Below, piece by piece: positions 37,684-54,208 of a stretch of 64,000 nt of DNA (positions are counted from its first letter, which is position 1; each line of letters starts with the position of its first letter). The notes beneath the pieces were generated by a model. That model saw nothing but the letters and a program-made list of their open reading frames with translations. It did not search any database and had not been told where the DNA came from. The stretch comes from a virus. Its lineage: Duplodnaviria; Heunggongvirae; Uroviricota; Caudoviricetes. A program made the translations under genes and the position numbers. The stretch lies in IMG/VR virus record IMGVR_UViG_2703718869_000013, positions 33,127 through 97,126 of that record. One strand, 5' to 3'.

Positions 37684-37717
37684 ATTGCTCTAATAAATTT
37701 GATTTATTAGAGCAAAT
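37684..37717. promoter_or_regulatory. paired inverted C1-operator-like sites upstream of module B
   Basis: ATTGCTCTAATAAATTT (perfect consensus, 37684-37700) followed by inverted atttattagagcaaat (37702-37717). Confidence 0.7.
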
Positions 37718-39354: not shown

Positions 39355-42085
<2,731 letters not shown>

Positions 42086-42387
42086 TTAATTAGAACAATT
42101 CACATCATGTTTGAACGGAATTTAACACTAGTCACTTGTTAAGGATTACCAATGAACAAGCTATCTATGTGGTGTTTCGCTGTTCAAGTGTCAGCGAAAT
42201 ATTGAAATATATTAGTGCAATAACATTTCATCGGGCGCCGATTAGATACGGCGTGGAAAAGGTGGAAGGCAAAAGCTATGACCGACTACGCCGGACGTGA
42301 AATAATATGTCCACACTATCTGATACAATAAAACCGAATAGGACATAACTTCGACGTCAAAGCCTTGGCACAGGCTGGAGAGAAAAC

Positions 42388-42636
42388 TTGAAAAAGCGAT
42401 ACTACACAGTAAAGCATGGGACGCTACGAGCATTACAAGAGTTTGCTGACAAGCATAACGTTGAGGTGCGCAGGGAAGGGGGAAGTAAAGCTCTGCGCAT
42501 GTACCGTCCGGACGGGAAATGGCGTACGGTCGTCGATTTCAAAACTAACAGTGTTCCCCAGGGCGTCCGCGATCGGGCATTCGAAGAATGGGAGCAGATC
42601 ATCATAGATAATGCTCTGCTACTAAATGCTGACTGA
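42388..42636 (+). CDS. hypothetical small basic protein
   Basis: 82 aa; faint resemblance to HicA/YcfA-type small RNA-binding toxins (GSKALRMYRPDGKWRTVV) but lacks the His and any adjacent antitoxin ORF. Confidence 0.3.
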   Translation: MKKRYYTVKHGTLRALQEFADKHNVEVRREGGSKALRMYRPDGKWRTVVDFKTNSVPQGVRDRAFEEWEQIIIDNALLLNAD

Positions 42637-42674
42637 GTTTAATATTACAATATTATCTGGGAGATAAATGCATA

Positions 42675-43409
42675 TTATTTTCCAGATAATAACTGATGTT
42701 TTGCATATTCACGTGGCGTGCAATTATAATATTGCCTGAACAGGCACACAAAGTACGATGTACTACTAAAGCCACAGCTTTCTGATACTTGTTTGACTGA
42801 ATGATTTTGCTTTAGTAATTTAATAGCGAAAGCCATCCGTGTATCAAGTAATAACTTACTGAAGGAGGTGTTTTCCAATAATAGTTTTTTCTTTATTAAG
42901 CTTTCACTCATGTAGAGATAATCGGTTAGGTCTCTTAGTTTCCAGTGTTTAGATACATCTGAAAGAAATATGCTGCGCACTTTCCCTGAGAAAGTGGGCA
43001 TACCAGACGTAAGAAATGCTCTAAAGTTATCAACATCATTAAAAATTGAGAGTAATGAAAAAGTTACTGCCTCCCTAAAATCAGAATGGATATGATTTTG
43101 GTCGCTTATATTATCGATCATCCTGATTAATAAATCAGGATAGGCAAAAGACTTTTTTAGCAAATGTGGACACTTATCCAGCGATTGGTTTCCAAGGTTG
43201 TTGCTGCATAATAAATAGTTTCTTACGGTATTATCATTGAGTTCGAATTCTATATATTTGTCTGAATACATTTTTAAGCATTCATGCTCAGAATGCTTAA
43301 GCAACAACACATCACCGTAATTTAATATCAAGAAATCCTTAAGAAATTGAAAGCTTATAGGTTTCTTTATGAGTATGAAGTAACAAACTGCTGACATGGC
43401 CACCACCAT
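42675..43409 (-). CDS. AraC-family transcriptional regulator (AppY/EnvY-like)
   Basis: C-terminal helix-turn-helix region LIKKKLLLENTSFSKLLLDTRMAFAIKLL...GFSSTSYFVCLFRQYY closely resembles E. coli AppY as I recall it; AT-rich gene. Confidence 0.8.
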   Translation of the reverse strand: MVVAMSAVCYFILIKKPISFQFLKDFLILNYGDVLLLKHSEHECLKMYSDKYIEFELNDNTVRNYLLCSNNLGNQSLDKCPHLLKKSFAYPDLLIRMIDNISDQNHIHSDFREAVTFSLLSIFNDVDNFRAFLTSGMPTFSGKVRSIFLSDVSKHWKLRDLTDYLYMSESLIKKKLLLENTSFSKLLLDTRMAFAIKLLKQNHSVKQVSESCGFSSTSYFVCLFRQYYNCTPREYAKHQLLSGK

Positions 43410-43535
43410 TCTAAAGAGGCTTTGAATAAGAATAGAGATAGCCAGGCTCAGAAATCAAGAAGTTGTGTAAAAATAAAATTATTGATTTATGTCACATTTT
43501 TTGATTGTTTTAATTGATGTTTTTCAATATTATCA

Positions 43536-43559
43536 CAAACAAACAAACAAACAAACAAA
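43536..43559. repeat. tetranucleotide microsatellite (CAAA)6 in a divergent promoter region
   Basis: Six perfect tandem CAAA units between the divergently transcribed AraC-like and EAL genes. Confidence 0.95.
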
Positions 43560-43661
43560 TAAATTGACATTTAATCTACAAAAGTAGAGTGTAACTCTTG
43601 TAAATATAGGGGGCTCGTTATCTGAGCAAAATCAAGCAATTTAAAACTTGAGGGTGGGGAT

Positions 43662-44351
43662 ATGGAAGTTATCTACATTGCAGAACCAATCATTTCTACG
43701 AGCACGAACAAGTTGATTGCAGTAGAAGTGTTAAGCAGATTTCGCTCCAAAGATGGTGTCGCTCTTCCTACTCAAAGAGTATTGGGTATGTTTACCAATA
43801 AGATGAAGATTAATTTACTTAAATCACAACTTAACACAATAATGAAATACAAGTGTTTTTTTGAACGCCATAATATACTATGTTCTATTAATGTAGATTA
43901 TGATACATGTATATATATATACAGTAATAAACAAACTCAAGAGTTAATTAAAAACAATAAATTTATAGCTCTTGAGATATCAGAAAACTACCCTGATTTA
44001 AGCGATGAGGATTACGTTATACCCTTTCTCCTGACTTTGACAGACTATGTTTGGCTTGATGATTTTGGAAGTGGCAACACCACCATGAAAACATTAATTA
44101 AAAATAAATACCATGCAATAAAACTTGATAAGGCCTTTTTCCAAGAATATGGGACTAATCCTCATTTTGATGTCATTATTAGTAATTTAAAAAAATTATG
44201 CCCGAATATCATCGCTGAAGGTGTTGAAAACATTGAGTGTCATAAGCTATCAAAAGGGATAGGGCTATGGGGTGCCCAGGGATATTTTTTTCCATCAATT
44301 CCTCTGGTGGAGATTGAGTCCATAGATAGTAAGTGGCTATCAGATTTATGA
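43662..44351 (+). CDS. stand-alone EAL-domain c-di-GMP phosphodiesterase (PdeH/YhjH-like)
   Basis: 229 aa with conserved EAL catalytic motifs: EVL, EISE, DDFGSGNTT, KLDK, EGVE, QGY; architecture and length like E. coli PdeH. Confidence 0.8.
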   Translation: MEVIYIAEPIISTSTNKLIAVEVLSRFRSKDGVALPTQRVLGMFTNKMKINLLKSQLNTIMKYKCFFERHNILCSINVDYDTCIYIYSNKQTQELIKNNKFIALEISENYPDLSDEDYVIPFLLTLTDYVWLDDFGSGNTTMKTLIKNKYHAIKLDKAFFQEYGTNPHFDVIISNLKKLCPNIIAEGVENIECHKLSKGIGLWGAQGYFFPSIPLVEIESIDSKWLSDL

Positions 44352-44404
44352 GATGCAGAGAGTTAGGATATTGATATGAACGTCTAAGCACCTCATTACC
44401 ATGC

Positions 44405-45049
44405 TTAAAAGATGTTATCCTTACCTGTTAATTTACCTTGAGGAACTTTAGCGAGCTCCATCCGATAAAATGCTCTTATCATATTTACAAATGGTTCATA
44501 TGGTGAATATCTGTTGTCTTGTTCAGTAATGGTGTTTGTCATTGTCCTGATGAAGTCTGCGCTTGCCACGTTGTTGTATTCCGTTGCGAAGCAGCATAAC
44601 AACGTCAGAACGTGCTCTGTCGTTATTTCGCTCCAGTTGATGTTGAAAAACTCATCGCCTTTTTTATCGTGTTCGGAATCGAAGATGCTTTGGTGGAGGA
44701 TGTATTTGCCGGATTCCTTGCGCGGTAACTTGATTGCTTTCTGGCGTTCCAGCTCCTTATAAATCTGCATTGCCTCAATTAGTACCGGCCTGCCGTTCAT
44801 GAAGGGATCGCGCAACCTTACACGCTGGCCAACTCGACCAGTAATAAAGCTGTTTTCCTCTTCCACCAGCACGATAAAACCCTTCTCCTCTTTTTCTCGC
44901 AATTCGCGCAGCAGCTGGAGTTCCATATCGCGGCGGCGTTCAGGGTAGCTGGTCCGCTCAGCCATTATCAGCTCGTTATTGATCCATGCAGCAGTCATTG
45001 ACGCCGGTTTGCCGACGCTCATCGAAACAACGCATATTTTCTTATCCAT
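44405..45049 (-). CDS. hypothetical protein
   Basis: 214 aa from ATG at 45049 preceded by GGGGGAG; the listed ORF extends to 45196; no family recognised. Confidence 0.45.
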   Translation of the reverse strand: MDKKICVVSMSVGKPASMTAAWINNELIMAERTSYPERRRDMELQLLRELREKEEKGFIVLVEEENSFITGRVGQRVRLRDPFMNGRPVLIEAMQIYKELERQKAIKLPRKESGKYILHQSIFDSEHDKKGDEFFNINWSEITTEHVLTLLCCFATEYNNVASADFIRTMTNTITEQDNRYSPYEPFVNMIRAFYRMELAKVPQGKLTGKDNIF

Positions 45050-45309: not shown

Positions 45310-45326
45310 ATTGCTCTAATAAATTT
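45310..45326. promoter_or_regulatory. C1-operator-like site upstream of module C
   Basis: ATTGCTCTAATAAATTT, perfect match to the consensus, followed by a degenerate inverted copy. Confidence 0.7.
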
Positions 45327-45643: not shown

Positions 45644-45865
45644 ATGGTTAATGCCAATCCTTGCGCACGCCCTGAATTTATCTGGCGCTTTTACTCCTGC
45701 CAGAAACGCCACTATCACTTCGTTATTGCACCGACAGAAGATGAGGCACGTTCTCAGCTTCCGGATGCTCCCTGCATTTTCTCCGCACGCTTTTCTACTG
45801 ACTCGCGCAATTCTCTCAGTTACTGGTGCCTCCCTGTTAACGCTTCTGTTCAGGAGGGGCTATGA
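45644..45865 (+). CDS. icd: Icd-like small protein (module C)
   Basis: 73 aa paralog; stop overlaps the ant start. Confidence 0.6.
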   Translation: MVNANPCARPEFIWRFYSCQKRHYHFVIAPTEDEARSQLPDAPCIFSARFSTDSRNSLSYWCLPVNASVQEGL

Positions 45866-46974
45866 GAACGTCATTAGTCACCCGTGAAGAGATGATCGAG
45901 GCAATTGAACAGCACACAATCTGTATCAGCACCAGGGATATACCAGGCGTTATTGCCAACTACTTCATGATCACCAAACAACTTTACCGGAGAAAGGACA
46001 AGAACGCGGTTCACCGTATCCTGTTGTCTGATATCCGCGAATACCTGCTCGAACAGGGTCATCTGAATTACGCAACCGTCGCAGCCGAAGCACGCAAGGA
46101 GGCACACAGAATGAAAGCAACTAACGTTAAATCAGAAAAAATTTATGCACCTTCAGTTCAGGAATCGGAACTGGTGGTTGTTCAGAATCAGCCGGATGAA
46201 ATTCCCGTTCTGGAATGGCAGGGAGTACGTGTCGTAACAACCGAAACTCTTGCTAGAGGGTATGGGGTCGATGAAGCCAATATTCGCAACAATTTGTCTC
46301 GCAACCTTGACCGCTTTGAAGAAGGTAAGCATTACTTTCTTCTAACTGGTTTAAAATTAAGAGAATTTAAGAACAGAGTAACCGGAAGTTACTCTGTTGG
46401 TAAGAACGCCAGAAGCCTTACACTCTGGACAGAGCGCGGCGCTGCACGCATGTCTAAGATCGTGGACACAAATGAAGCATGGGCATTCTTTGAAAAACTG
46501 GAAGACAGCTACTTCCGGCAAAAAGAACAGCAACCGGTCGCAATCCCTCAGACGCTTCCCGAAGCTCTGCGCCTGGCTGCCGAGCTGGCTGAACAAAAGC
46601 AACTTCTGGAACAGAAAGCCCACCAGCTAAATCAGCAGCTGGTGGCCGCCGCCCCTAAAGTCGATTTTGCCGACCGGGTATCAGGGGCCAAGGGGATCCT
46701 GATTGGAAATTTTGCAAAGGTTGTTGGGCTTAAGCAAAACGCGTTGTTTGCCTGGTTACGGGGGAACGGCATCCTGATAGCGTCCGGTGGACGTAAAAAT
46801 GTGCCGTTCCAGCAATACATCAACGCCGGGTATTTCACGGTGAAAGAAGTGGTGCTGGATGATGAAGATGGTTACCAGATACGGCTGACGCCCCAATTAA
46901 CGGGTAAAGGCCAGCAGTGGTTGACGCGTAAACTGCTCGAAGCTGGCTTGTTAAAACCGGTGGCGGCTGAATGA
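45862..46974 (+). CDS. ant: antirepressor Ant, type 2 (module C)
   Basis: 370 aa; different central domain from modules A/B (AntA/ORF6N-like, PVLEWQGVRVVTTETLARGYG) plus the shared ANT C-terminus. Confidence 0.75.
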   Translation: MRTSLVTREEMIEAIEQHTICISTRDIPGVIANYFMITKQLYRRKDKNAVHRILLSDIREYLLEQGHLNYATVAAEARKEAHRMKATNVKSEKIYAPSVQESELVVVQNQPDEIPVLEWQGVRVVTTETLARGYGVDEANIRNNLSRNLDRFEEGKHYFLLTGLKLREFKNRVTGSYSVGKNARSLTLWTERGAARMSKIVDTNEAWAFFEKLEDSYFRQKEQQPVAIPQTLPEALRLAAELAEQKQLLEQKAHQLNQQLVAAAPKVDFADRVSGAKGILIGNFAKVVGLKQNALFAWLRGNGILIASGGRKNVPFQQYINAGYFTVKEVVLDDEDGYQIRLTPQLTGKGQQWLTRKLLEAGLLKPVAAE

Positions 46975-47213
46975 TTAAAAAAGGCGGCCTTTCGGCCGCC
47001 AATGATGTCACGGAGTCTATAATGGCAATGTCTTCGTAGTTGACTAAAGCCACAACTCAATTATAACAATTAATTATAGCAATAGTGGCTATTTTATTTA
47101 TCGCGAATCACATTTTTTCTCTTCAGTACATGTGTGCTATACTCCTTCTTGATTGATTGGATGCGGAATACAAACCCGCTCTTTTGTGCAGCCTGGCTCC
47201 TTGCCAGGCTTTT

Positions 47214-47525
47214 TTATTTCATCATGGAAGCTGTTAACGCTTTGGACCTTGCTGAACTGATTGAGAGGGCTTTGTCAACGTGCCCCAAAAATTCGCCAAA
47301 CTCAGACATCACTTTAGCAAAACCGCGCCGTGCTTCTTCCTCGGTGGCGTTCATCACGAAATGTTCAGCACCACGCATACTTTTGACAGGGAACGCAACG
47401 GATATTGAGTCAATATCAGGCATTCTATCGCTCAGCTTTACAGTGACAATGACGGCTGGCGACTGAATATTAGTGCTTACAGACAGCACTACATATTTTC
47501 CGTCGATGTTGAAATCCTTTCTCAT
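47214..47525 (-). CDS. hypothetical protein downstream of cre
   Basis: 103 aa with good coding character; the overlapping + strand ORF 47134-47466 is judged spurious. Confidence 0.45.
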   Translation of the reverse strand: MRKDFNIDGKYVVLSVSTNIQSPAVIVTVKLSDRMPDIDSISVAFPVKSMRGAEHFVMNATEEEARRGFAKVMSEFGEFLGHVDKALSISSARSKALTASMMK

Positions 47526-47575
47526 ATGTCACCATAAATATCAAAGAATTAGAGCAATCATTTACGCGTTGATGG

Positions 47576-48607
47576 CTAATCGCCATCTTCCAGCAGGCGC
47601 ACCATTGCCCCTGTTTCACTATCCAGGTTACGAATGTAGTTCATGACAATATTTACGTTGGTCCAGCCACCAGCTTGCATGATCTCCGGTATTGAAACTC
47701 CGGCGCGGGCCATATCTCGCGCGGCACCGACACGGGCACTATGTCCAGACCAGGCCAGGTATCGCTGACCAGAGTCATCTTTTGCCCCGTAAATCAATCG
47801 GTGAGTTGCTTCAAAAATCCCTTCCAGGGCGCGAGTTGATAGCTGGCTGGTGGATGATGGCGCGGCAACACCATTTTTTCTGACGCGGCAAAACAGGTAG
47901 TTATTCGGATCATCAGCTACACCAGAGACAGAAATCCATCGCTCAACCAGTTTAGTTACCCCCAGGCTAAGTGCCTTCTCTACACCAGCGGTGCTAACCA
48001 GCGTTTTCGTTCTGCCAATATGGATTAACATTCTCCCACCGTCAGTACGTGAGATATCTTTAACCCTGATCCTAGAAATTTCGGCTATACGTAACAGGGT
48101 GTTATAAGCAATCCCCAGAAATGCCAGATTACGTATATCCTGGCAGCGATCGCTATTTTCCATGAGTGAACGAACCTGGTCGAAATCAGTGCGTTCGAAC
48201 GCCAGCGCCTGTTTTGCACGCTCACCGGCATCAACGTTTTCTTTTCGGATCCGTCGCATGACCAGTGAAACAGCATTGCTGTCACTTGGTCGTGGCAGCC
48301 CGGACCGACGATGAAGCATGTTTAGCTGGCCCAAATGTTGCTGGATAGTTTTTACTGCCAGACCACGCGCCTGAAGATATAGAAGGTAATCGCGAACATC
48401 TTCAGGTTCTGCGGGAAACCATTTCCGGTTATTCAACATGCACCATGCCGCCCACGACCGGCAAACGGACAGAAGCATTTTCCAGGTATGATCAGAAAAC
48501 GCCTGGCGATCCCTGAACATGTCCATCAGGTTCTTGCGAACCTCATCACTCGTTGCATCGACCGGCAATGCAGGCAAATTTTGGTGAACGGTTAACGAAT
48601 TAGTCAT
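47576..48607 (-). CDS. cre: Cre site-specific tyrosine recombinase
   Basis: 343 aa; matches P1 Cre along its whole length with a few substitutions as far as I can recall (for example N-terminus MTNSL versus MSNLL); loxP lies 820 bp upstream. Confidence 0.97.
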   Translation of the reverse strand: MTNSLTVHQNLPALPVDATSDEVRKNLMDMFRDRQAFSDHTWKMLLSVCRSWAAWCMLNNRKWFPAEPEDVRDYLLYLQARGLAVKTIQQHLGQLNMLHRRSGLPRPSDSNAVSLVMRRIRKENVDAGERAKQALAFERTDFDQVRSLMENSDRCQDIRNLAFLGIAYNTLLRIAEISRIRVKDISRTDGGRMLIHIGRTKTLVSTAGVEKALSLGVTKLVERWISVSGVADDPNNYLFCRVRKNGVAAPSSTSQLSTRALEGIFEATHRLIYGAKDDSGQRYLAWSGHSARVGAARDMARAGVSIPEIMQAGGWTNVNIVMNYIRNLDSETGAMVRLLEDGD

Positions 48608-48999
48608 TTATTATGCGTGATTTTAACAGTTAAGCCTTGTTCATGAAGTATCTCATCAATAATTCGAATCACATCCCCTGGTAGATCATCGTTCTCGAAA
48701 TATCTGTGATCGGGGATTTCTACAGTGATTGGGGTTGCTGCTTTATGCAAAATCCGAACAATCTTTTTTTCTTTTTTGCATGTTGCATATTCAGCCTCTT
48801 CGATATCTATCCAGCTCGCACCATCAAATTGCTGGTAAACCCGAGTGTATAGTAAGCGGTTTCGCTTTACTTCTTCTGCTAACTCCCAAATTGCAACAGC
48901 CATAGCACGTTCATTTTCATTCGTTCCAGGGTTAGCAGCTTTTTGTTTTGCGTCGTTCAGTAAGGCGTTTACCTTGGCATCTGTCAGGCCATTAAACAT
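48604..48999 (-). CDS. cra: cre-associated upstream protein (Cra-like)
   Basis: 131 aa; stop overlaps the cre start; positioned between loxP and cre. Confidence 0.45.
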   Translation of the reverse strand: MFNGLTDAKVNALLNDAKQKAANPGTNENERAMAVAIWELAEEVKRNRLLYTRVYQQFDGASWIDIEEAEYATCKKEKKIVRILHKAATPITVEIPDHRYFENDDLPGDVIRIIDEILHEQGLTVKITHNK

Positions 49000-49018
49000 T
49001 CATCACCTCATGATCAAG

Positions 49019-49240
49019 TTAAATTATTGTTTTCAGCAGAGTGTACAGGATTGGCTCTGCCTTTACCTGGTTATGGTTCTCGTCATAGAAACGCCAGCGA
49101 CCGCGCGTGCGTTCTATTTTCTCTTCACCGCGAGATAATGACTGTTGGTAACTATCACGCTCAAACCATTTTGCCCGCCAGTAACCACGGTTTTTCTCAA
49201 GCTCAAGATGAGTGGACACTTTAGCAGCTGAATATCCCAT
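49019..49240 (-). CDS. hypothetical small protein between loxP and cra
   Basis: 73 aa ORF; may instead be regulatory leader of the cre operon. Confidence 0.25.
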   Translation of the reverse strand: MGYSAAKVSTHLELEKNRGYWRAKWFERDSYQQSLSRGEEKIERTRGRWRFYDENHNQVKAEPILYTLLKTII

Positions 49241-49337
49241 TTTTCACCTCTGATTGATTGGTGGTGCTAAGTGCGCTACGCGAAATCTGGAGCACTAACA
49301 CTGCCAACATTTCGCAGATTTTACGTAGCGCAACCTT

Positions 49338-49357
49338 GATCAAATGATCAAGTGATC
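49338..49357. promoter_or_regulatory. cluster of three Dam GATC sites in the cre upstream region
   Basis: ttgatcaaatgatcaagtgatcac: GATC at 49338, 49346 and 49354. Confidence 0.6.
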
Positions 49358-49429
49358 ACTATTTGACCTGATAAGGTATTGAACTGTATGGATTTACAGG
49401 TAAATTAATCATGTTCAATAACCCTTAAG

Positions 49430-49463
49430 ATAACTTCGTATAATGTATGCTATACGAAGTTAT
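49430..49463. other. loxP: loxP recombination site
   Basis: Exact 34-bp site ATAACTTCGTATA-ATGTATGC-TATACGAAGTTAT (13-bp inverted repeats, 8-bp spacer). Confidence 0.98.
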
Positions 49464-49506
49464 TAGGTCCGAAGAGGAGTTTACGTCCAGCTACGCATAA
49501 AAATCA

Positions 49507-49523
49507 AGAATTATTAGAGCAAT
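49507..49523. promoter_or_regulatory. C1-operator-like site (Op99-type) upstream of coi/c1
   Basis: agaattattagagcaat, 15 of 17 match to the operator consensus. Confidence 0.5.
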
Positions 49524-49583
49524 AAATTTTGAGAGAAAAATCCCACTCCACCAGCCAAAAACTGGATTGTTTTTCATAGTTGT

Positions 49584-49610
49584 TTGACAATTGCTCTAAT
49601 AAATTATAGT
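49584..49610 (+). promoter_or_regulatory. promoter TTGACA-N15-TATAGT overlapped by a C1-operator-like site (49590-49606)
   Basis: ttgaca 49584-49589, tatagt 49605-49610, with ATTGCTCTAATAAATTa embedded; classic repressor-over-promoter arrangement directing transcription toward coi and c1. Confidence 0.6.
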
Positions 49611-49844
49611 TTTGCCGCCGTTACGTAATACGACTTTGGATTCACTATTTAATGTGTCTTCAGCGTTGTAGAGCGGCTCAGAAGGAAATGAGCAAACAGG
49701 GAAACCTTATACAACGGCATTACAGCTATGCATTGCTCATCTTACACACAGCGCAATGTTGTTAGATTACCCCAGCATGGATCATGGGTGAAACAGTAGG
49801 TCAGAGCTTCAGGCTCTGTGTTGTCAATACAGTGAGGCATAATT

Positions 49845-50054
49845 ATGGCTTTCATTCAACCAACCATCGACGACGTTAGACATTGCTCTAACGCTTTATC
49901 TGTAGACCCTGCCGAAACCGACGCTGCCCGCGCCATTGCTGAACACTACTCAAAGATATCCAATCAGGAGTACCGCATCACCCAAGACGACCTGGATGAT
50001 CTCACTGACACAATCGAATATCTCATGGCCACTAACCAGCCAGACTCACAATAA
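49845..50054 (+). CDS. coi: Coi-like C1 inactivator
   Basis: 69 aa acidic protein immediately upstream of the c1-like gene, as in the P1 immC region. Confidence 0.55.
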   Translation: MAFIQPTIDDVRHCSNALSVDPAETDAARAIAEHYSKISNQEYRITQDDLDDLTDTIEYLMATNQPDSQ

Positions 50055-50164
50055 ATGCACTAATAAATCTATTATTTTCGTTGGATCCTTCTATAATGGT
50101 GGCCAACAACTCCCAGTGTAATCCGCTGTGAGTTGTTGGCCATGTCAATTCTGGAGGAGGATCA

Positions 50165-51016
50165 ATGATAAATTATGTCTACGGCGAACAACTGTACCAG
50201 GAGTTCGTCAGCTTCAGGGATCTCTTTCTAAAAAAAGCTGTTGCACGCGCCCAACACGTTGATGCCGCCAGCGACGGTCGTCCTGTACGCCCGGTTGTCG
50301 TTCTGCCGTTCAAAGAAACGGACAGCATTCAGGCTGAAATTGATAAATGGACTTTAATGGCGCGGGAACTGGAACAGTACCCAGACCTCAATATCCCAAA
50401 GACTATTTTATATCCAGTGCCTAACATCCTTCGCGGTGTGCGTAAGGTTACAACTTATCAGACAGAAGCTGTGAACAGCGTCAACATGACCGCTGGCCGC
50501 ATTATTCATCTGATTGATAAGGACATTCGCATCCAGAAAAGCGCGGGGATCAATGAGCACAGTGCGAAATACATAGAGAACCTGGAAGCAACAAAAGAGC
50601 TAATGAAGCAGTACCCGGAGGATGAAAAATTCCGTATGCGTGTACACGGCTTTAGCGAAACAATGCTGCGCGTCCATTACATTTCCAGTAGCCCTAACTA
50701 CAATGATGGTAAATCAGTTAGTTACCATGTGCCGCTGTGTGGTGTGTTTATCTGCGATGAAACTCTCCGTGATGGAATCATCATCAACGGTGAATTCGAG
50801 AAAGCAAAATTTAGCCTTTATGACTCTATAGAACCGATCATCTGCGACCGCTGGCCGCAGGCAAAAATATATCGCCTGGCAGATATTGAAAATGTAAAAA
50901 AACAAATTGCCATCACTCGCGAAGAGAAAAAGGTTAAGTCAGCCGCATCAGTTGCGCGCAGCCGTAAAACCAAGAAGGGGCAGCCAGTAAACGACAACCC
51001 CGAAAGCGCGCAATAA
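50165..51016 (+). CDS. c1: C1-like primary repressor of lysogeny
   Basis: 283 aa, P1 C1 size; strong RBS GGAGGAGG; many matches to the C1 operator consensus across the window. Confidence 0.75.
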   Translation: MINYVYGEQLYQEFVSFRDLFLKKAVARAQHVDAASDGRPVRPVVVLPFKETDSIQAEIDKWTLMARELEQYPDLNIPKTILYPVPNILRGVRKVTTYQTEAVNSVNMTAGRIIHLIDKDIRIQKSAGINEHSAKYIENLEATKELMKQYPEDEKFRMRVHGFSETMLRVHYISSSPNYNDGKSVSYHVPLCGVFICDETLRDGIIINGEFEKAKFSLYDSIEPIICDRWPQAKIYRLADIENVKKQIAITREEKKVKSAASVARSRKTKKGQPVNDNPESAQ

Positions 51017-51018
51017 AT

Positions 51019-51041
51019 TATGCCCGGCATCAACCGGGCAT
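51019..51041. terminator. bidirectional hairpin terminator between c1 and ant D
   Basis: atgcccgg catcaa ccgggcat between convergent genes. Confidence 0.5.
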
Positions 51042-51048
51042 TCTTCCA

Positions 51049-52167
51049 TTATTCAGCCGCCACCGGTTTTAACAAGCCAGCATCGAGCAGTTTACGCGTC
51101 AACCACTGCTGGCCTTTACCCGTTAATTGAGGCGTCAACCGTATCTGGTAGCCATCTTCATCATCCAGCACCACTTCTTTCACCGTGAAATACCCGGCGT
51201 TGATGTACTGCTGGAACGGCACATTTTTACGTCCACCGGACGCTATCAGGATGCCGTTCTCCCGTAACCAGACAAACAGCGCGTTTTGCTTAAGTCCAAC
51301 AACCTTTGCAAAATTCCCAATCAGGATCCCTTTAGCTACTGATACCCGGTCGGCAAAATCGACTTTAGGAGCGGCGGCCACCAGCTGCTGATTTAGCTGG
51401 TGGGCTTTCTGTTCCAGAAGTTGCTTTTGTTCAGCCAGTTCGGCAGCCAGGCGTAGGACTTCAGGAAGCGTCTGGGGGATTGCGATCGGTTGCTGTTCTT
51501 TTTGTCGGAAGTAGCTGTCTTCCAGTTTTTCAAAGAATGCCCATGCCTGATCGGTTTCGAGCATTTTAGCGTGGCGGGCTGCGCCGCGTTCTGTCCAGAG
51601 GGTGAGTGAGCGAACATTGCGAGCAATTTTTACAGAGTAGTTTAAAGCTACTCTGTGCTTCAACTCGCGCAATGATTCTCCTTCAACTTTGAAAAAGTGC
51701 TTCCCTTCAACAAAGCGTACTTTGTTCTCATGATGATTTTGGCGAATACGGATTGTTTCTGTCCCATACCCTCTCGCAAGAGTCTCGGTTGTCACTACAC
51801 GCACTCCCTGCCATTCCAGAACGGGAATTTCATCAGACTGATTCTGAACAACCACCAGCTCCGATTCCTGAACTGAAGGTGCATGAATTTTTTCTAATTT
51901 AACGTTATTTGCTTTCATTCTGTGTGCCTCCTTGCGTGCTTCGGCTGCGACGGTTGCGTAATTCAGATGACCCTGTTCGAGCAGGTATTCGCGGATATCA
52001 GACAACAGGATACGGTGAACCGCGTTCTTGTCCTTTCTCCGGTAAAGTTGTTTGGTGATCATGAAGTAGTTGGCAATAACGCCAGGTATATCCCTGGTGC
52101 TGATACAGATTGTGTGCTGTTCAATTGCCTCGATCATCTCTTCACGGGTGACTAATGACGTTCTCAT
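51049..52167 (-). CDS. ant: antirepressor Ant, type 2 (module D)
   Basis: 372 aa, close paralog of the module C Ant. Confidence 0.75.
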   Translation of the reverse strand: MRTSLVTREEMIEAIEQHTICISTRDIPGVIANYFMITKQLYRRKDKNAVHRILLSDIREYLLEQGHLNYATVAAEARKEAHRMKANNVKLEKIHAPSVQESELVVVQNQSDEIPVLEWQGVRVVTTETLARGYGTETIRIRQNHHENKVRFVEGKHFFKVEGESLRELKHRVALNYSVKIARNVRSLTLWTERGAARHAKMLETDQAWAFFEKLEDSYFRQKEQQPIAIPQTLPEVLRLAAELAEQKQLLEQKAHQLNQQLVAAAPKVDFADRVSVAKGILIGNFAKVVGLKQNALFVWLRENGILIASGGRKNVPFQQYINAGYFTVKEVVLDDEDGYQIRLTPQLTGKGQQWLTRKLLDAGLLKPVAAE

Positions 52168-52385
52168 AGTCCCTCCTGAGCAGAAGCGTTAACAGGGAGG
52201 CACCAGTAACTGAGAGAATTGCGTGAATCAGTGGAAAAACGGGCAGAGAAAATACATGGGGCGTCAGGAAGCTGAGAGCGAGCCTCATCTTCTGTTGGTG
52301 CAATAACGAAGTGATAGTGACGTTTTTGGCAGGAGTAAAAGCGCCAGATAAATTCAGGATGAGTTGGGGTAGGGATAGTAGCCAT
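52164..52385 (-). CDS. icd: Icd-like small protein (module D)
   Basis: 73 aa from MATIPTPTHPEFIWRF...; RBS AAGGAGG; the listed 187-aa ORF (to 52727) is an upstream read-through artefact. Confidence 0.55.
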   Translation of the reverse strand: MATIPTPTHPEFIWRFYSCQKRHYHFVIAPTEDEARSQLPDAPCIFSARFSTDSRNSLSYWCLPVNASAQEGL

Positions 52386-52469
52386 ATTGGCAGCCTCCTT
52401 AGACGTTGGTATGTAACCACCGCAGAAGAGACCAATCTTGCTGGCGGTGGACTGTACGGAGTTGGCCTT

Positions 52470-52530
52470 ACTGGCGTCCAAGGTAACCAGCCTACCCGAA
52501 GGTAGCCCCATACAGCCCACCATTGTAGAG
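52470..52530 (-). ncRNA. c4: divergent c4-like antisense RNA (module D), approximate ends
   Basis: Minus-strand core ggtgggctgtatggggctaccttcgggtaggctggtta; loop CTTGGACG can pair with CGTCTAAG at the icd RBS (one G-U wobble); GTCTAAG also upstream (plus 52581-52587). Confidence 0.45.
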
Positions 52531-52703
52531 GTGTGCGTGTACGCCGATACAAAAAAAGACGCGAGCGGCGTCTGTATCGCCTTAGACTTAAGCGGGAGGC
52601 CAATCCCGGCACCCGTTTTAATGAGGTGCCTGATAAGCATAAACCGAAAATGCCTCAAGGCGCAAGAGGTCAGGCTCAATGTAACATCGGTAGTTAAAAA
52701 ACA

Positions 52704-52720
52704 CAATTTATTAGAGCAAA
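52704..52720. promoter_or_regulatory. C1-operator-like site upstream of module D
   Basis: caatttattagagcaaa, 15 of 17 match to the operator consensus. Confidence 0.55.
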
Positions 52721-52723
52721 TAT

Positions 52724-54208
52724 TCATTCATTAAGCCATGCCAGAGCTTCATCAACCTGCGCTTCGTCTTCGACGCTAAGCACTTCATCCTGGGGAACAT
52801 AATCCGCCAGCATAGCGAAACAATATGTATCCCAATGGTCTGGTGAGTGCAGGTTGAGTTTTTTCTTCATATCCTCCTTACTCATCACTTTCCATTGACC
52901 TGCGGAGTTAATCCCTACAGGGATTTTCGACGCTTCCTCAATAGTTTCATTACCCTTATCCAGTCTCATACGACCAGATTTTACGGCCTCTGCGGCTTGA
53001 ACGTTGGCATAAGCACGTTTATCAAAGTACAGGCTCTTATCTTCACGGCTATGCATCTTTTTACCCCAGCGTATACGCTGTACGGTAATACCATAATACT
53101 CGTACATCAGATCCGCCGTTGCTTTACCCAGGCCATCGCCGTCTATCGCTATGGTGATATTTGGGAATCGCTCAGGATTACATTCTGCGAAAATTTTGGC
53201 GGCAAGCTGCGTTTCTGTAACGTCTGTGTATTCCAGCATTCGATAGTTGATTACACGGCGTTTATTTCGCTGGCCGGACACCATCATGATATTAATAACG
53301 GACTTATCTCGTCCTGTGCCACCAGCAACGTCAACACATGCAACCCAGCCCCATCCTTTGGCAATCTTGACTTTCCGCCGCGTTGCACGTTCAACCTCAT
53401 CACGTCCAAGAAGGAAGCCATCCTGTGATTTAGGAAATAGGCCGCGTACCTTAATCATGTACATAGGGTTATCACGCCCGCCGTACTCCGCCAGCTTCAT
53501 TTTGATAAATGCTGGCGTTACCAGCGGTGATTCCTCACTGTTAAGCGTGATCGCCGTATAAACGCCATCAGGGTTACCAGGCCGCTTGGCCAGTTTATGG
53601 TGAGTATCGTAGAAATAGCCGCTTGGGCGTGTAGGCTGTGACAGCAATAAGATGCGGTTATCCTGTCCGGTAAGAGCACCGGTGATGATACCGAAAGCTC
53701 TATCACTGACACCGGAGGCTTCATCGATAATATACAGAAGATGATCTGCGTGTTCACCTGCGAGAGCTTCTTCACTTCCCAGACGAAAGCCCTTCGGTAC
53801 TACAGTCCATACACCTTTACCAGTAACTTCATAAAAAGCGGTTTCTGTCAGAACAAAATAATCCGCAAGCCATGGAAAACGGCTGGTGGCCGTAGCCCAG
53901 TTTATCTTGATGTACTTGAATATACCGGTCATTACCTGCTGAATTTTGTTCGCAACGATAATGGCACGGGCACCGGGATACATGATTATGAACAACATGA
54001 TCATGATAGAAGTCATGTCTGATTTCCCGGTACCGTGACCAGACGAAACAGATGTCTTGCTACCCTGTTCCTGCACAGACTCAATAATCAGATCCTGCTG
54101 CCAGGTAGGTGTTTTGCCGAACAAAACATCAGCGGCCGCAATCCAGTCATAACGATATAGCGCCACCAGCTCGCGCCAACGTGGATCCGTTACGCAACTT
54201 CTGGCCAT
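52724..54208 (-). CDS. pacB: terminase large subunit (PacB-like)
   Basis: 494 aa; Walker A SGHGTGKS and Walker B-like IIDEAS; directly downstream of the pacA-like gene. Confidence 0.8.

What the first reader, a model, noticed from the sequence alone, without database searches (positions are those of the whole stretch)
43536..43559. (CAAA)6 microsatellite in the AppY-like / EAL divergent promoter: possible phase-variable switch
Six perfect tandem CAAA units lie in the 250-bp region between the two divergently transcribed cargo genes, about 100 bp upstream of the EAL start. Tetranucleotide tracts of this length are prone to slipped-strand mispairing, and when they sit in promoter spacers they change promoter strength. 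Such tracts are rare in enterobacterial phage DNA.
Basis: seen in the sequence. Interest (0 to 1): 0.6.

Follow-up and report, generated by a model that had tools for sequence, protein, structure and literature searches.

The report
Variable CAAA microsatellite upstream of EAL
A short CAAA repeat between two accessory genes of a P1-like E. coli phage-plasmid is real and changes length (2 to 8 units) far faster than the DNA around it, but it looks like a slowly drifting microsatellite that at most fine-tunes gene expression, not a proven fast on/off switch.

Summary
(CAAA)6 sits at 43536-43559, 103 bp upstream of the EAL start, in the intergenic region between a YdeO/AppY-like regulator and a standalone EAL gene. 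The pair is low-GC cargo in the res/mod slot of a P1-type phage-plasmid. No shuffle of the window reproduces the tract.

The slippage claim is supported by comparison. Across 34 independent public copies the tract has 2, 3, 4, 5, 6 or 8 units. Nineteen copies share a byte-identical 1,653-nt module and still carry 3, 4, 5, 6 or 8 units. Other short repeats in the same DNA barely vary. The tract therefore mutates about 10^2.5 to 10^3.5 times faster than a single base.

Five near-identical plasmids all keep 4 units. The implied rate (about 10^-7 to 10^-6 per generation, inferred) is 2 to 3 orders of magnitude below classical contingency loci.

The tract is not in a -35/-10 spacer of any credible EAL promoter. 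It lies just upstream of a conserved TTGACA, at about -41 to -64.

The best reading is a young microsatellite born from a (CAAA)2TAAA proto-repeat, acting at most as a nadA-like spacing rheostat. Neutrality is almost as likely. Any effect on expression is untested.

The parts
43536..43559 (+). (CAAA)6 microsatellite, read as (TTTG)6 on the minus strand; polymorphic with 2-8 units in relatives
   Evidence: presence, non-random; length polymorphism
43560..43563 (+). TAAA, an imperfect seventh unit; together with (CAAA)2 it forms the ancestral proto-repeat seen in diverged homologues
   Evidence: ST2747 and O111 plasmids carry (A/G)CAAACAAATAAA; E. albertii ACTAACAAATAAG; OP279344 ACAGATAAATAAA
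43564..43569 (+). Perfect -35-like TTGACA, 4 nt downstream of the tract and invariant in all homologues; its complement ATGTCA could serve as a minus-strand -35
   Evidence: invariant columns
43585..43590 (+). Candidate -10 TAGAGT, 15 nt after TTGACA (suboptimal spacing; not conserved in E. albertii)
   Evidence: best plus-strand score, 8.4 bits in a rough PWM; missed by the stricter tool scan
43599..43607 (+). Candidate extended -10, TGTAAATAT, conserved in all homologues; in OP279344 a 15-bp deletion places TTGACA exactly 17 nt upstream of it
   Evidence: conserved block TGT[A/G]AATATA; 15-bp gap in OP279344
43529..43537 (-). Candidate extended -10 TGTGATAAT on the minus strand, abutting the tract; its -35 would fall in or beyond the tract (ATGTCA at 18 nt only for n=3, TTGTTT at 18 nt for n>=6). 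Not conserved in distant homologues
   Evidence: (E. albertii CTTTACC and OP279344 TTTCACT at this position)
43429..43458 (-). Best conserved candidate promoter of the regulator gene: TTGATT (43458-43453), 18-nt spacer, TATTCT (43434-43429). Both hexamers are invariant in all homologues. The tract lies more than 100 bp upstream of it
   Evidence: 7.1 bits, independent of n; invariant columns 43428-43440 and 43451-43467
43453..43465 (+). Perfect IHF core consensus WATCAANNNNTTR (AATCAAGAAGTTG), invariant in homologues; a near-copy, AAATCAAGCAATT, lies at 43629-43641
   Evidence: 4 matches in 64 kb against 3.8 expected, so about 0.016 expected inside this 264-nt region; direct repeat D1
42675..43397 (-). 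YdeO/AppY-like AraC-family regulator, 240 aa
   Evidence: HTH_18; full-length match to the YdeO model at 155 bits, below the 348-bit cut-off; PGAP start as
43662..44351 (+). Standalone EAL protein, 229 aa, related to STM1697/YdiV but with catalytic motifs intact
43910..43921 (+). (TA)6 inside the EAL CDS; one TA unit is lost in GCA_020342095.1, giving an 87-aa product
44189..44195 (+). A7 run inside the EAL CDS; it is A6 in phage Ro157c2YLVW, GCA_044596115.1 and GCA_012657575.1, giving a 199-aa product

Best explanation
The tract is a young, truly hypermutable microsatellite made by slipped-strand mispairing. It lies in the upstream regulatory DNA shared by a divergent YdeO-like regulator gene and an EAL gene, which are cargo of a P1-type phage-plasmid. 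It arose from a (CAAA)2TAAA proto-repeat that is still visible in diverged homologues. It then expanded and contracted to 3-8 units while the surrounding 2.5-kb module stayed almost invariant and spread across diverse P1-like backbones (shown). It sits directly upstream of the conserved TTGACA, not within a core-promoter spacer. Each unit therefore moves everything to its left 4 bp (about 137 degrees of helix) away from the EAL core promoter. That includes the conserved upstream blocks, the IHF-like site and the regulator's promoter (anatomy shown; promoter identities inferred). The most likely consequence is a graded, heritable, lineage-to-lineage change in EAL transcription, and possibly in regulator transcription. 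This would be a nadA-like spacing rheostat (inferred, untested). It would operate at roughly 10^-7 to 10^-6 changes per generation, which is too slow for classical ON/OFF phase variation within a culture (inferred from comparative data and a textbook E. coli mutation rate).
For: The tract is real and non-random. There is an allele series across 34 independent records: n=2 in 4, n=3 in 11, n=4 in 8, n=5 in 3, n=6 in 4 (window included), n=8 in 1, one (CAAA)5(TAAA)2 variant, and two degenerate outgroups. Nineteen records with an identical 1,653-nt module haplotype carry n=3, 4, 5, 6 or 8. Against the IMG/VR contig the window shows 1 substitution in 2.9 kb and a 2-unit difference; against phage Ro157c2YLVW it shows 3 point changes and a 3-unit difference. 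Control repeats in the same loci show 0-1 changes in 17-19 loci: seven 7-nt homopolymers and (TA)6. The alleles are coherent by descent, which argues against artefact: the five-plasmid cluster at 0-18 SNPs is all n=4, while pairs at 22 and 28 SNPs differ in n. Polarity is clear, because only the most diverged haplotypes have 2 units or a degenerate tract. On position, TTGACA (43564-69), the TGT[A/G]AATATA block and the regulator-proximal hexamers are invariant in homologues up to 13% diverged, and the tract lies between them. No C1 operator lies in the region. There is a precedent for a 4-13-unit tetranucleotide tract upstream of a core promoter tuning transcription through the spacing of distal elements: nadA (PMC2791445).
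Against: No transcription start, regulator site or expression measurement exists for this locus. The tool scan finds no canonical sigma-70 promoter, and my PWM candidates are weak. Observed alleles show no preference for particular helical phases: 3, 4, 5, 6 and 8 all occur on one haplotype. That is what neutrality predicts. Diverged homologues do without any tract, so it is not required for the module to work. The IHF-like site is about 70 bp from the tract, not at its border as in nadA. The rate estimate rests on parsimony counts, ignores selection and recombination, and uses a per-base mutation rate taken from general knowledge.
Confidence: 0.45

Rival explanations
1. Selectively neutral microsatellite. 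Slippage in AT-rich, horizontally acquired intergenic DNA created and keeps resizing the tract, but tract length has no meaningful effect on expression of either gene.
For: All lengths from 3 to 8 occur on one identical haplotype with a roughly geometric spectrum (mode 3, tail to 8) and no helical-phase preference. Diverged homologues lack the tract. No strong promoter overlaps it. The tempo is slow.
Against: The tract abuts a perfectly conserved TTGACA and lies between conserved blocks of a compact divergent control region. In such regions, insertions of 4-24 bp at about -41 usually alter activator, UP-element or H-NS geometry (general knowledge). nadA shows that tracts of this type and position can matter (PMC2791445).
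Confidence: 0.4
2. Classical high-frequency ON/OFF phase variation of the hifA/hifB type. The tract would be the spacer of a minus-strand promoter for the regulator gene (ATGTCA, tract, TGtGATAAT). That promoter would have a workable 18-nt spacer only at n=3, or use a tract-derived TTGTTT -35 at n>=6. The regulator, and through it the EAL gene, would then switch on and off.
For: The extended -10 TGTGATAAT abuts the tract. ATGTCA falls 18 nt away exactly at n=3, the commonest allele, and the score varies with n. The divergent-promoter SSR precedent is hif (PMC2651432).
Against: GATAAT is not conserved in the E. albertii or OP279344 homologues, whereas a promoter-like pair nearer the gene (TTGATT-18-TATTCT) is invariant. 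That candidate would leave a leader of about 120 nt. Five near-identical plasmids all keep n=4, which argues against rapid switching. n=4 and n=5, the predicted OFF states, are common.
Confidence: 0.1
3. Translational frameshift switch of a mini-ORF that spans the tract (43489-43587 on the plus strand, 32 aa; or 43570-43487 on the minus strand, 27 aa).
For: Both ORFs exist, and their C-termini change with n modulo 3.
Against: Neither has a Shine-Dalgarno sequence. ORFs of this size are expected by chance in AT-rich DNA. There was no Rfam or protein-family support. All frames occur freely among alleles.
Confidence: 0.02
4. Sequencing or assembly artefact, such as stutter or collapse of the repeat.
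For: Most relatives are short-read draft assemblies.
Against: The tract is at most 32 nt, far shorter than a read. Each allele recurs in several independent assemblies and follows backbone relatedness (cluster all n=4). Complete genomes and a finished phage genome show the same kind of differences.
Confidence: 0.01

Closest known systems
nadA promoter (TAAA)n tract of Neisseria meningitidis (Metruccio et al. 2009, PMC2791445)
   Same: Both are A-rich tetranucleotide tracts of similar size (nadA has 4-13 units; isolates carry 5, 6, 8, 9 or 12). Both lie upstream of the core promoter rather than in the -35/-10 spacer, in horizontally acquired DNA. Length changes alter the spacing of distal elements, not the sigma-factor contacts. 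Isolates differ in repeat number.
   Different: nadA switching is measured at about 4.4x10^-4; here the inferred rate is about 10^-7 to 10^-6. nadA has mapped NadR operators on both sides and an IHF site at the tract's distal border. Here no regulator sites are mapped, and the only IHF-like consensus is about 70 bp away. The host is E. coli, and the genes are a regulator/EAL pair, not an adhesin. No expression data exist.
hifA/hifB (TA)n tract of Haemophilus influenzae (van Ham 1993 and Geluk 1998, as summarised in PMC2651432)
   Same: An SSR sits between two divergently transcribed genes and is proposed to affect both.
   Different: The hif tract lies between the -10 and -35 of overlapping promoters. 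Here that holds only for a weak, non-conserved minus-strand candidate, and not for the EAL promoter candidates. The unit is a dinucleotide with 9-11 copies, against a tetranucleotide with 2-8.
neuO of prophage CUS-3 in E. coli K1 (PMC13001214)
   Same: A phage-borne cargo gene in E. coli with a slippage-prone SSR whose copy number differs widely among genomes. It shows that SSR contingency loci can ride on E. coli phages.
   Different: The neuO repeat is a heptanucleotide inside the coding region (3-53 copies) and gives translational ON/OFF with measurable within-culture heterogeneity. The present tract is intergenic, short, and has no demonstrated phenotype.
Tetranucleotide contingency loci of Haemophilus influenzae (PMC2651432)
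   Same: The same mutational mechanism and unit length. The tract exceeds the length expected by chance (3 units at most).
   Different: Those tracts are mostly inside ORFs, typically much longer, and mutate at about 10^-4 per generation. This one is short, intergenic and apparently 100- to 1000-fold slower.
STM1697 and YdiV (EAL-like anti-FlhD4C2 factors) and PdeH (YhjH), as relatives of the downstream gene
   Same: The best PDB sequence matches are STM1697 (E=1.4e-27) and YdiV (E=3.6e-21), both standalone EAL folds of similar size. The best NCBIfam match is the PdeH-type model.
   Different: Unlike STM1697 and YdiV, this protein keeps EVLSR, DDFGSG, KLD, EGVE and QG. It could therefore be an active c-di-GMP phosphodiesterase. 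It scores below the PdeH equivalog cut-off (93 against 190 bits).

Membership tests
SSR-mediated phase-variable (contingency) locus | Uninterrupted simple-sequence repeat longer than expected by chance | tested here: met
   Six perfect units. There were 0 matches in 100 shuffles. It is the only tetranucleotide tract of 4 or more units in 64 kb.
SSR-mediated phase-variable (contingency) locus | Repeat number differs between closely related strains while the flanks are conserved | tested here: met
   n=3, 4, 5, 6 and 8 occur on one identical 1,653-nt haplotype in 19 records. Controls are nearly invariant.
SSR-mediated phase-variable (contingency) locus | High-frequency, reversible switching within a clonal population (about 10^-5 per generation or more) | not testable with these tools
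   No read-level or single-colony data are available. Indirect evidence points lower. Five plasmids 0-18 SNPs apart all have n=4, and the tract changes about 10^2.5 to 10^3.5 times faster than one base.
SSR-mediated phase-variable (contingency) locus | Tract placed so that length changes alter expression (inside an ORF, or inside or next to a promoter) | tested here: inconclusive
   The tract is intergenic, 4 nt upstream of a conserved TTGACA and next to a minus-strand TGTGATAAT. No canonical promoter was found by the tool, and there is no TSS data.
nadA-type distal-spacing phase variation | Tetranucleotide tract upstream of the -35, outside the core promoter | tested here: inconclusive
   This holds for both plus-strand promoter candidates (tract at about -41 to -64, or further upstream), but the promoters are consensus predictions only.
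nadA-type distal-spacing phase variation | IHF site at the distal border of the tract, and regulator operators on both sides | tested here: not met
   The only WATCAANNNNTTR match is at 43453-43465, about 70 bp from the tract. No operators are known, and no C1 operator lies in the region.
hif-type SSR in the spacer of overlapping divergent promoters | Tract lies between the -35 and -10 hexamers | tested here: not met
   No plus-strand candidate has the tract in its spacer. The only minus-strand candidate that does (ATGTCA, tract, GATAAT) is not conserved in the E. albertii or OP279344 homologues.
P1-like (Punavirus) phage-plasmid | P1 gene order and C1 operator network | tested here: met
   The module is 99.2% identical to Punavirus phage Ro157c2YLVW. 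Synteny runs lxc, cargo, mat, icd/ant, cre, c1. There are 13 C1-operator matches against 0.39 expected.
YdiV/STM1697 EAL-like anti-FlhD4C2 factors | Sequence membership of the clade | tested here: met
   The best PDB hits are STM1697 at 1.4e-27 and YdiV at 3.6e-21, aligned over the full length.
YdiV/STM1697 EAL-like anti-FlhD4C2 factors | Degenerate catalytic motifs (loss of DDFG and EGVE) | tested here: not met
   The window protein has EVLSR(22), DDFGSG(133), KLD(154), EGVE(186) and QG(206). STM1697 has GDLGVG and GGQEN, and YdiV has GNLGAG and GGIDT.
PdeH (YhjH) c-di-GMP phosphodiesterase | Score above the NCBIfam equivalog cut-off | tested here: not met
   NF008617 scores 93.3 bits against a cut-off of 190. 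Pfam EAL is met at 64.8 bits against 31.3.
YdeO/AppY subgroup of AraC/XylS regulators | Full-length similarity above the curated cut-off | tested here: not met
   The YdeO model aligns over residues 1-233 of 240 but scores 155 bits against a cut-off of 348. The AraC-type HTH domain is met. It is a relative, not an orthologue.

The most novel reading that the evidence does not exclude
The tract is a true transcriptional contingency element carried by an E. coli phage-plasmid. Its length would set the expression of a YdeO-like regulator and a catalytically intact STM1697/YdiV-family EAL protein, so populations of lysogens would be heritably heterogeneous for motility or biofilm behaviour. That would be an SSR-based, nadA-like switch in a species where phase variation is otherwise almost entirely driven by DNA inversion or methylation.
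Probability: 0.12. Interest if true: 0.6.

Novelty: new member of a known kind. Interest (0 to 1): 0.35.

Why it matters
If tract length does tune the EAL/regulator pair, P1-like phage-plasmids would give their E. coli hosts a heritable, mutable setting for a c-di-GMP or flagellar control protein. That would add an SSR-based mechanism to a species known mainly for inversion-based and methylation-based phase variation. Even if the tract is neutral, it is a clean natural example of microsatellite birth and growth (2 to 8 units) in a bacterial mobile element. It is also a practical high-resolution marker for tracking this cargo module, which is nearly invariant yet found on many different P1-like backbones in public E. 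coli assemblies.

Tried and rejected
1. Canonical sigma-70 promoter and terminator scan of 43300-43750: nothing found. My own rough PWM gave only weak candidates, so no promoter is asserted.
2. Gapped pattern scans for the tract with its flanks: 0 hits in genome contigs and in metagenome contigs, and 1 in IMG/VR.
3. Protein-seeded scan of genome contigs with the EAL protein: no relatives confirmed. Species-representative genomes evidently lack this plasmid module.
4. Mini-ORFs across the tract as frameshift targets: rejected. They have no ribosome-binding site, all frames occur freely, and ORFs of this size are expected by chance.
5. A structured RNA in or near the region: no Rfam match at E<=1.
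6. C1-operator control of the cargo pair: no operator in the intergenic region. The nearest are at 42205-42221 and 45310-45326.
7. The 22-nt imperfect inverted repeat that includes the distal tract units (43489-43510 / 43549-43570, 82% complementary): noted but not interpreted, because it is low-complexity A/T sequence.
8. Helical-phase preference among alleles: none seen.
9. Literature on this gene pair in P1-like elements: none found in the held library. PHROGs lists both proteins as 'unknown function'.
10. A literature search for E. coli SSR surveys returned nothing useful.
11. (CAAA)6 in IMG/VR is too widespread among unrelated, often giant-virus contigs to say anything about enterobacterial phages.

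Full report
OBSERVATION. The sequence contains six perfect CAAA units at 43536-43559, followed by an imperfect unit, TAAA, at 43560-43563. TRF reports 7.2 copies of period 4 at 43535-43563. None of 100 dinucleotide-preserving shuffles of the window produced a match, even with two mismatches allowed. A full microsatellite census shows this is the only tetranucleotide repeat of 4 or more units in 64 kb. The only dinucleotide repeat of 5 or more units, (TA)6 at 43910-43921, lies in the neighbouring EAL gene. The regulator CDS is 42675-43397 on the minus strand, the EAL CDS is 43662-44351 on the plus strand, the intergenic region is 264 nt, and the tract ends 103 nt before the EAL ATG.

CONTEXT. 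The window is a P1-type (Punavirus) phage-plasmid. The module is 99.2% identical to Escherichia phage vB_EcoM-Ro157c2YLVW and 87% identical to a P1 record. The gene order lxc/bof, regulator, EAL, mat, icd/ant, cre, c1 is that of P1. P1 C1-operator sequences are strongly enriched, with 13 matches against 0.39 expected. The two cargo genes occupy the slot between lxc and mat where P1 carries res/mod. They are 33% GC against 47% for the window. The regulator is a full-length but sub-threshold relative of YdeO, and so belongs to the YdeO/AppY/GadX group. The EAL protein is a standalone EAL domain. Its closest solved relatives are STM1697 (E=1.4e-27) and YdiV (E=3.6e-21), the anti-FlhD4C2 'EAL-like' factors. 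Unlike them it retains EVLSR, DDFGSG, KLD, EGVE and QG.

IS THE TRACT UNSTABLE? YES, ON AN EVOLUTIONARY SCALE. Complete genomes, phage records and plasmids gave few relatives. Exact-protein look-ups showed that the module is common in public E. coli draft assemblies, in 364 and 445 index blocks respectively. Across 34 independent records the spectrum is as follows:
- n=2 in 4 records, all on diverged haplotypes
- n=3 in 11 records
- n=4 in 8 records
- n=5 in 3 records
- n=6 in 4 records, including the window
- n=8 in 1 record
- one (CAAA)5(TAAA)2 variant, which has the window's length with a C-to-T change in the last unit
- two degenerate outgroup sequences: ACTAACAAATAAG in E. albertii and ACAGATAAATAAA in OP279344

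The decisive result concerns a single haplotype. Nineteen independent records share a byte-identical 1,653-nt haplotype (861 nt to the left of the tract and 792 nt to the right) and yet carry n=3 (5 records), 4 (7), 5 (2), 6 (4) or 8 (1). Pairwise comparison agrees. The window differs from the IMG/VR contig by one substitution in 2.9 kb plus two repeat units. It differs from phage Ro157c2YLVW by three point changes plus three units. Internal controls behave differently. Seven 7-nt homopolymers and the (TA)6 run show 0-1 changes in the same 17-19 loci. The alleles follow descent: a five-plasmid cluster is uniformly n=4. The tract is much shorter than a read. Assembly artefact is therefore excluded for practical purposes.

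TEMPO. Within the close clade there are about 6-9 mutational events in the 1,653 non-tract bases and at least 4 tract-length events. Over 10.7 kb of shared backbone, plasmids 0-18 SNPs apart all keep n=4. Pairs 22 and 28 SNPs apart differ by 2 units and 1 unit. Both approaches put the tract at roughly 10^2.5 to 10^3.5 times the per-base rate. With an E. coli mutation rate of about 2x10^-10 per base per generation (general knowledge, not computed here), that gives about 10^-7 to 10^-6 per generation. This is within the '100-10,000 times basal' band quoted for SSR loci (PMC11868660). It is 2-3 orders of magnitude below nadA (4.4x10^-4; PMC2791445) and below Haemophilus tetranucleotide tracts (about 10^-4; PMC2651432). 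The estimate is crude: it uses parsimony and ignores recombination and selection.

HISTORY. Only the most diverged haplotypes have two units or a degenerate sequence, so the ancestral state was a (CAAA)2TAAA proto-repeat. The tract of 3 or more units arose on the 'A' variant (ATCACAAACAAA) and then diversified. The module itself is nearly invariant, with 10 variable sites in about 2,460 core columns, while the backbone to its right has tens to hundreds of variable sites per 500 columns. The module therefore appears to have spread recently across diverse P1-like backbones.

WHERE THE TRACT SITS. The consensus scan finds no canonical sigma-70 promoter in 43300-43750. A rough PWM scan of synthetic alleles with n=2-8, combined with conservation in homologues up to 13% diverged, gives four candidates:
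(a) Plus strand, TTGACA at 43564-43569, which is invariant, then 15 nt, then TAGAGT.
(b) Plus strand, a conserved extended -10 block, TGT[A/G]AATATA, at 43599-43608. In OP279344 a 15-bp deletion places TTGACA exactly 17 nt upstream of it.
(c) Minus strand, TTGATT, 18 nt, TATTCT at 43458-43429. Both hexamers are invariant, and the pair is close to the regulator gene.
(d) Minus strand, TGTGATAAT, abutting the tract. Its -35 would be ATGTCA at 18 nt only when n=3, or a tract-derived TTGTTT when n>=6. Its -10 is not conserved in distant homologues.

For candidates (a) to (c) the tract lies outside the core promoter. It is at about -41 to -64 (a) or further upstream (b) of the EAL start, and more than 100 bp upstream of the regulator start (c). 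Because the tract is periodic, the bases directly upstream of TTGACA stay the same for any n of 2 or more. What changes is the distance, and the helical phase (about 137 degrees per unit), to everything on the left. That includes a perfect, invariant IHF core consensus at 43453-43465, for which about 0.016 matches would be expected by chance in a region this size. No C1 operator lies in the region. There is no Rfam match. The mini-ORFs that cross the tract lack ribosome-binding sites.

MECHANISM AND RIVALS.
- Shown: the tract is made by slippage, is hypermutable, is multi-allelic, and lies upstream of the conserved -35-like element.
- Inferred, best reading (confidence 0.45): a nadA-like spacing rheostat that gives graded, heritable differences in EAL and perhaps regulator transcription between lineages, at a slow tempo.
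- Nearly as likely (0.40): a neutral microsatellite. All lengths occur on one haplotype without phase preference, and diverged homologues lack the tract.
- Less likely (0.10): a hif-like ON/OFF switch through candidate (d). Against it are the non-conserved -10, the common n=4 and n=5 alleles, and the stable n=4 cluster.
- Rejected: the mini-ORF frameshift switch and the artefact explanation.

COMPARISON WITH KNOWN SYSTEMS. The closest mechanistic analogue is the meningococcal nadA (TAAA)n tract, which is upstream of the core promoter, has 4-13 units, and acts through the spacing of distal elements (PMC2791445). Two defining features of that system, an IHF site at the tract border and flanking repressor operators, are not met or not testable here, so this locus is 'works-like at most', not a member. 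The hifA/hifB tract shares the divergent-gene setting but not the tract's position within the promoter (PMC2651432). neuO on prophage CUS-3 shows that phage-borne SSR contingency genes exist in E. coli, but its repeat is a coding-region heptanucleotide (PMC13001214). I found no paper on this gene pair or tract in the held library.

VERDICT. The slippage claim is confirmed by comparative data. The 'promoter-spacer phase-variable switch' is not demonstrated, and its strong form is unlikely. I classify the tract as a new member of a known kind: a polymorphic intergenic microsatellite next to a promoter. Interest is moderate to low (0.35). It is a neat natural example and a testable hypothesis, but it is not surprising to a specialist and its function is unproven.

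Noticed in passing
window 44189-44195 and 43910-43921 (EAL CDS); L003, L018, L039, L038: Two more slippage tracts inside the EAL gene are frameshifted in public copies. A7 is A6 in phage Ro157c2YLVW, GCA_044596115.1 and GCA_012657575.1, giving a 199-aa product. (TA)6 is (TA)5 in GCA_020342095.1, giving an 87-aa product. About 4 of 31 close copies therefore carry an inactivated EAL gene.
   Followed up: partly
window 43662-44351: By sequence the EAL protein belongs with STM1697 and YdiV, the degenerate anti-FlhD4C2 factors, yet it keeps all canonical catalytic motifs (EVLSR22, DDFGSG133, KLD154, EGVE186, QG206). It could be an active c-di-GMP phosphodiesterase, an FlhDC antagonist, or both. These activities would have opposite effects on motility.
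   Followed up: partly
window 42360-44860 compared with 45860-53300: The cargo module is almost invariant across 19 plasmids (10 variable sites in about 2,460 core columns), while the adjacent P1 backbone is highly diverse. This suggests recent spread of the module among different P1-like backbones by recombination.
   Followed up: partly
window 42675-44351; L004 (OP279344.1): The regulator/EAL pair sits between lxc and mat, exactly where P1 carries its type III res/mod genes. A GenBank record titled 'P1 isolate del res del mod' carries an 87%-identical homologue of the pair at that position. That copy has a 15-bp deletion that places TTGACA 17 nt from the conserved TGTAAATAT block.
   Followed up: partly
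window 43453-43465 and 43629-43641: A perfect IHF core consensus, AATCAAGAAGTTG, is invariant in all homologues and overlaps the candidate -35 of the regulator promoter. A near-copy, AAATCAAGCAATT, lies 21-33 nt upstream of the EAL ATG.
   Followed up: partly
window 43489-43510 / 43549-43570: A 22-nt imperfect inverted repeat (82% complementary) pairs ATGTCACATTTTTTGATTGTTT with the distal tract units plus TAAATTGACAT. It may be a chance feature of A/T-rich sequence, or it may be a binding or hairpin element.
   Followed up: no
L001 (E. coli ST2747 chromosome); L028/L035 (GCA_020366045.1, 269-kb contig): The module also occurs in chromosomal contexts, flanked by remnants of P1 genes (Ref, Eco57I-like methylase) or by chromosomal-looking genes (DUF1090, DUF883, yqjK, doxX, GST). 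P1-like elements carrying it have therefore integrated, or left fragments, in chromosomes.
   Followed up: no
window: 8794, 10464, 36722, 37684, 37700, 42205, 45310, 47067, 49507, 49590, 50054, 52704, 56010: There are thirteen matches to the P1 C1 operator ATTGCTCTAATAAATTT at 3 or fewer mismatches, against 0.39 expected. Perfect copies lie at 37684 and 45310, and 37684-37716 looks like a back-to-back pair.
   Followed up: no
window 42077-42387; L002, L022-L041: The window lacks darB and ulx between the portal gene and lxc. Many relatives carry the full 6.8-kb darB plus ulx there, and the collinear O111 plasmid is annotated with a darB (N-6 methylase) remnant. This is a structural polymorphism next to the cargo.
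   Followed up: no
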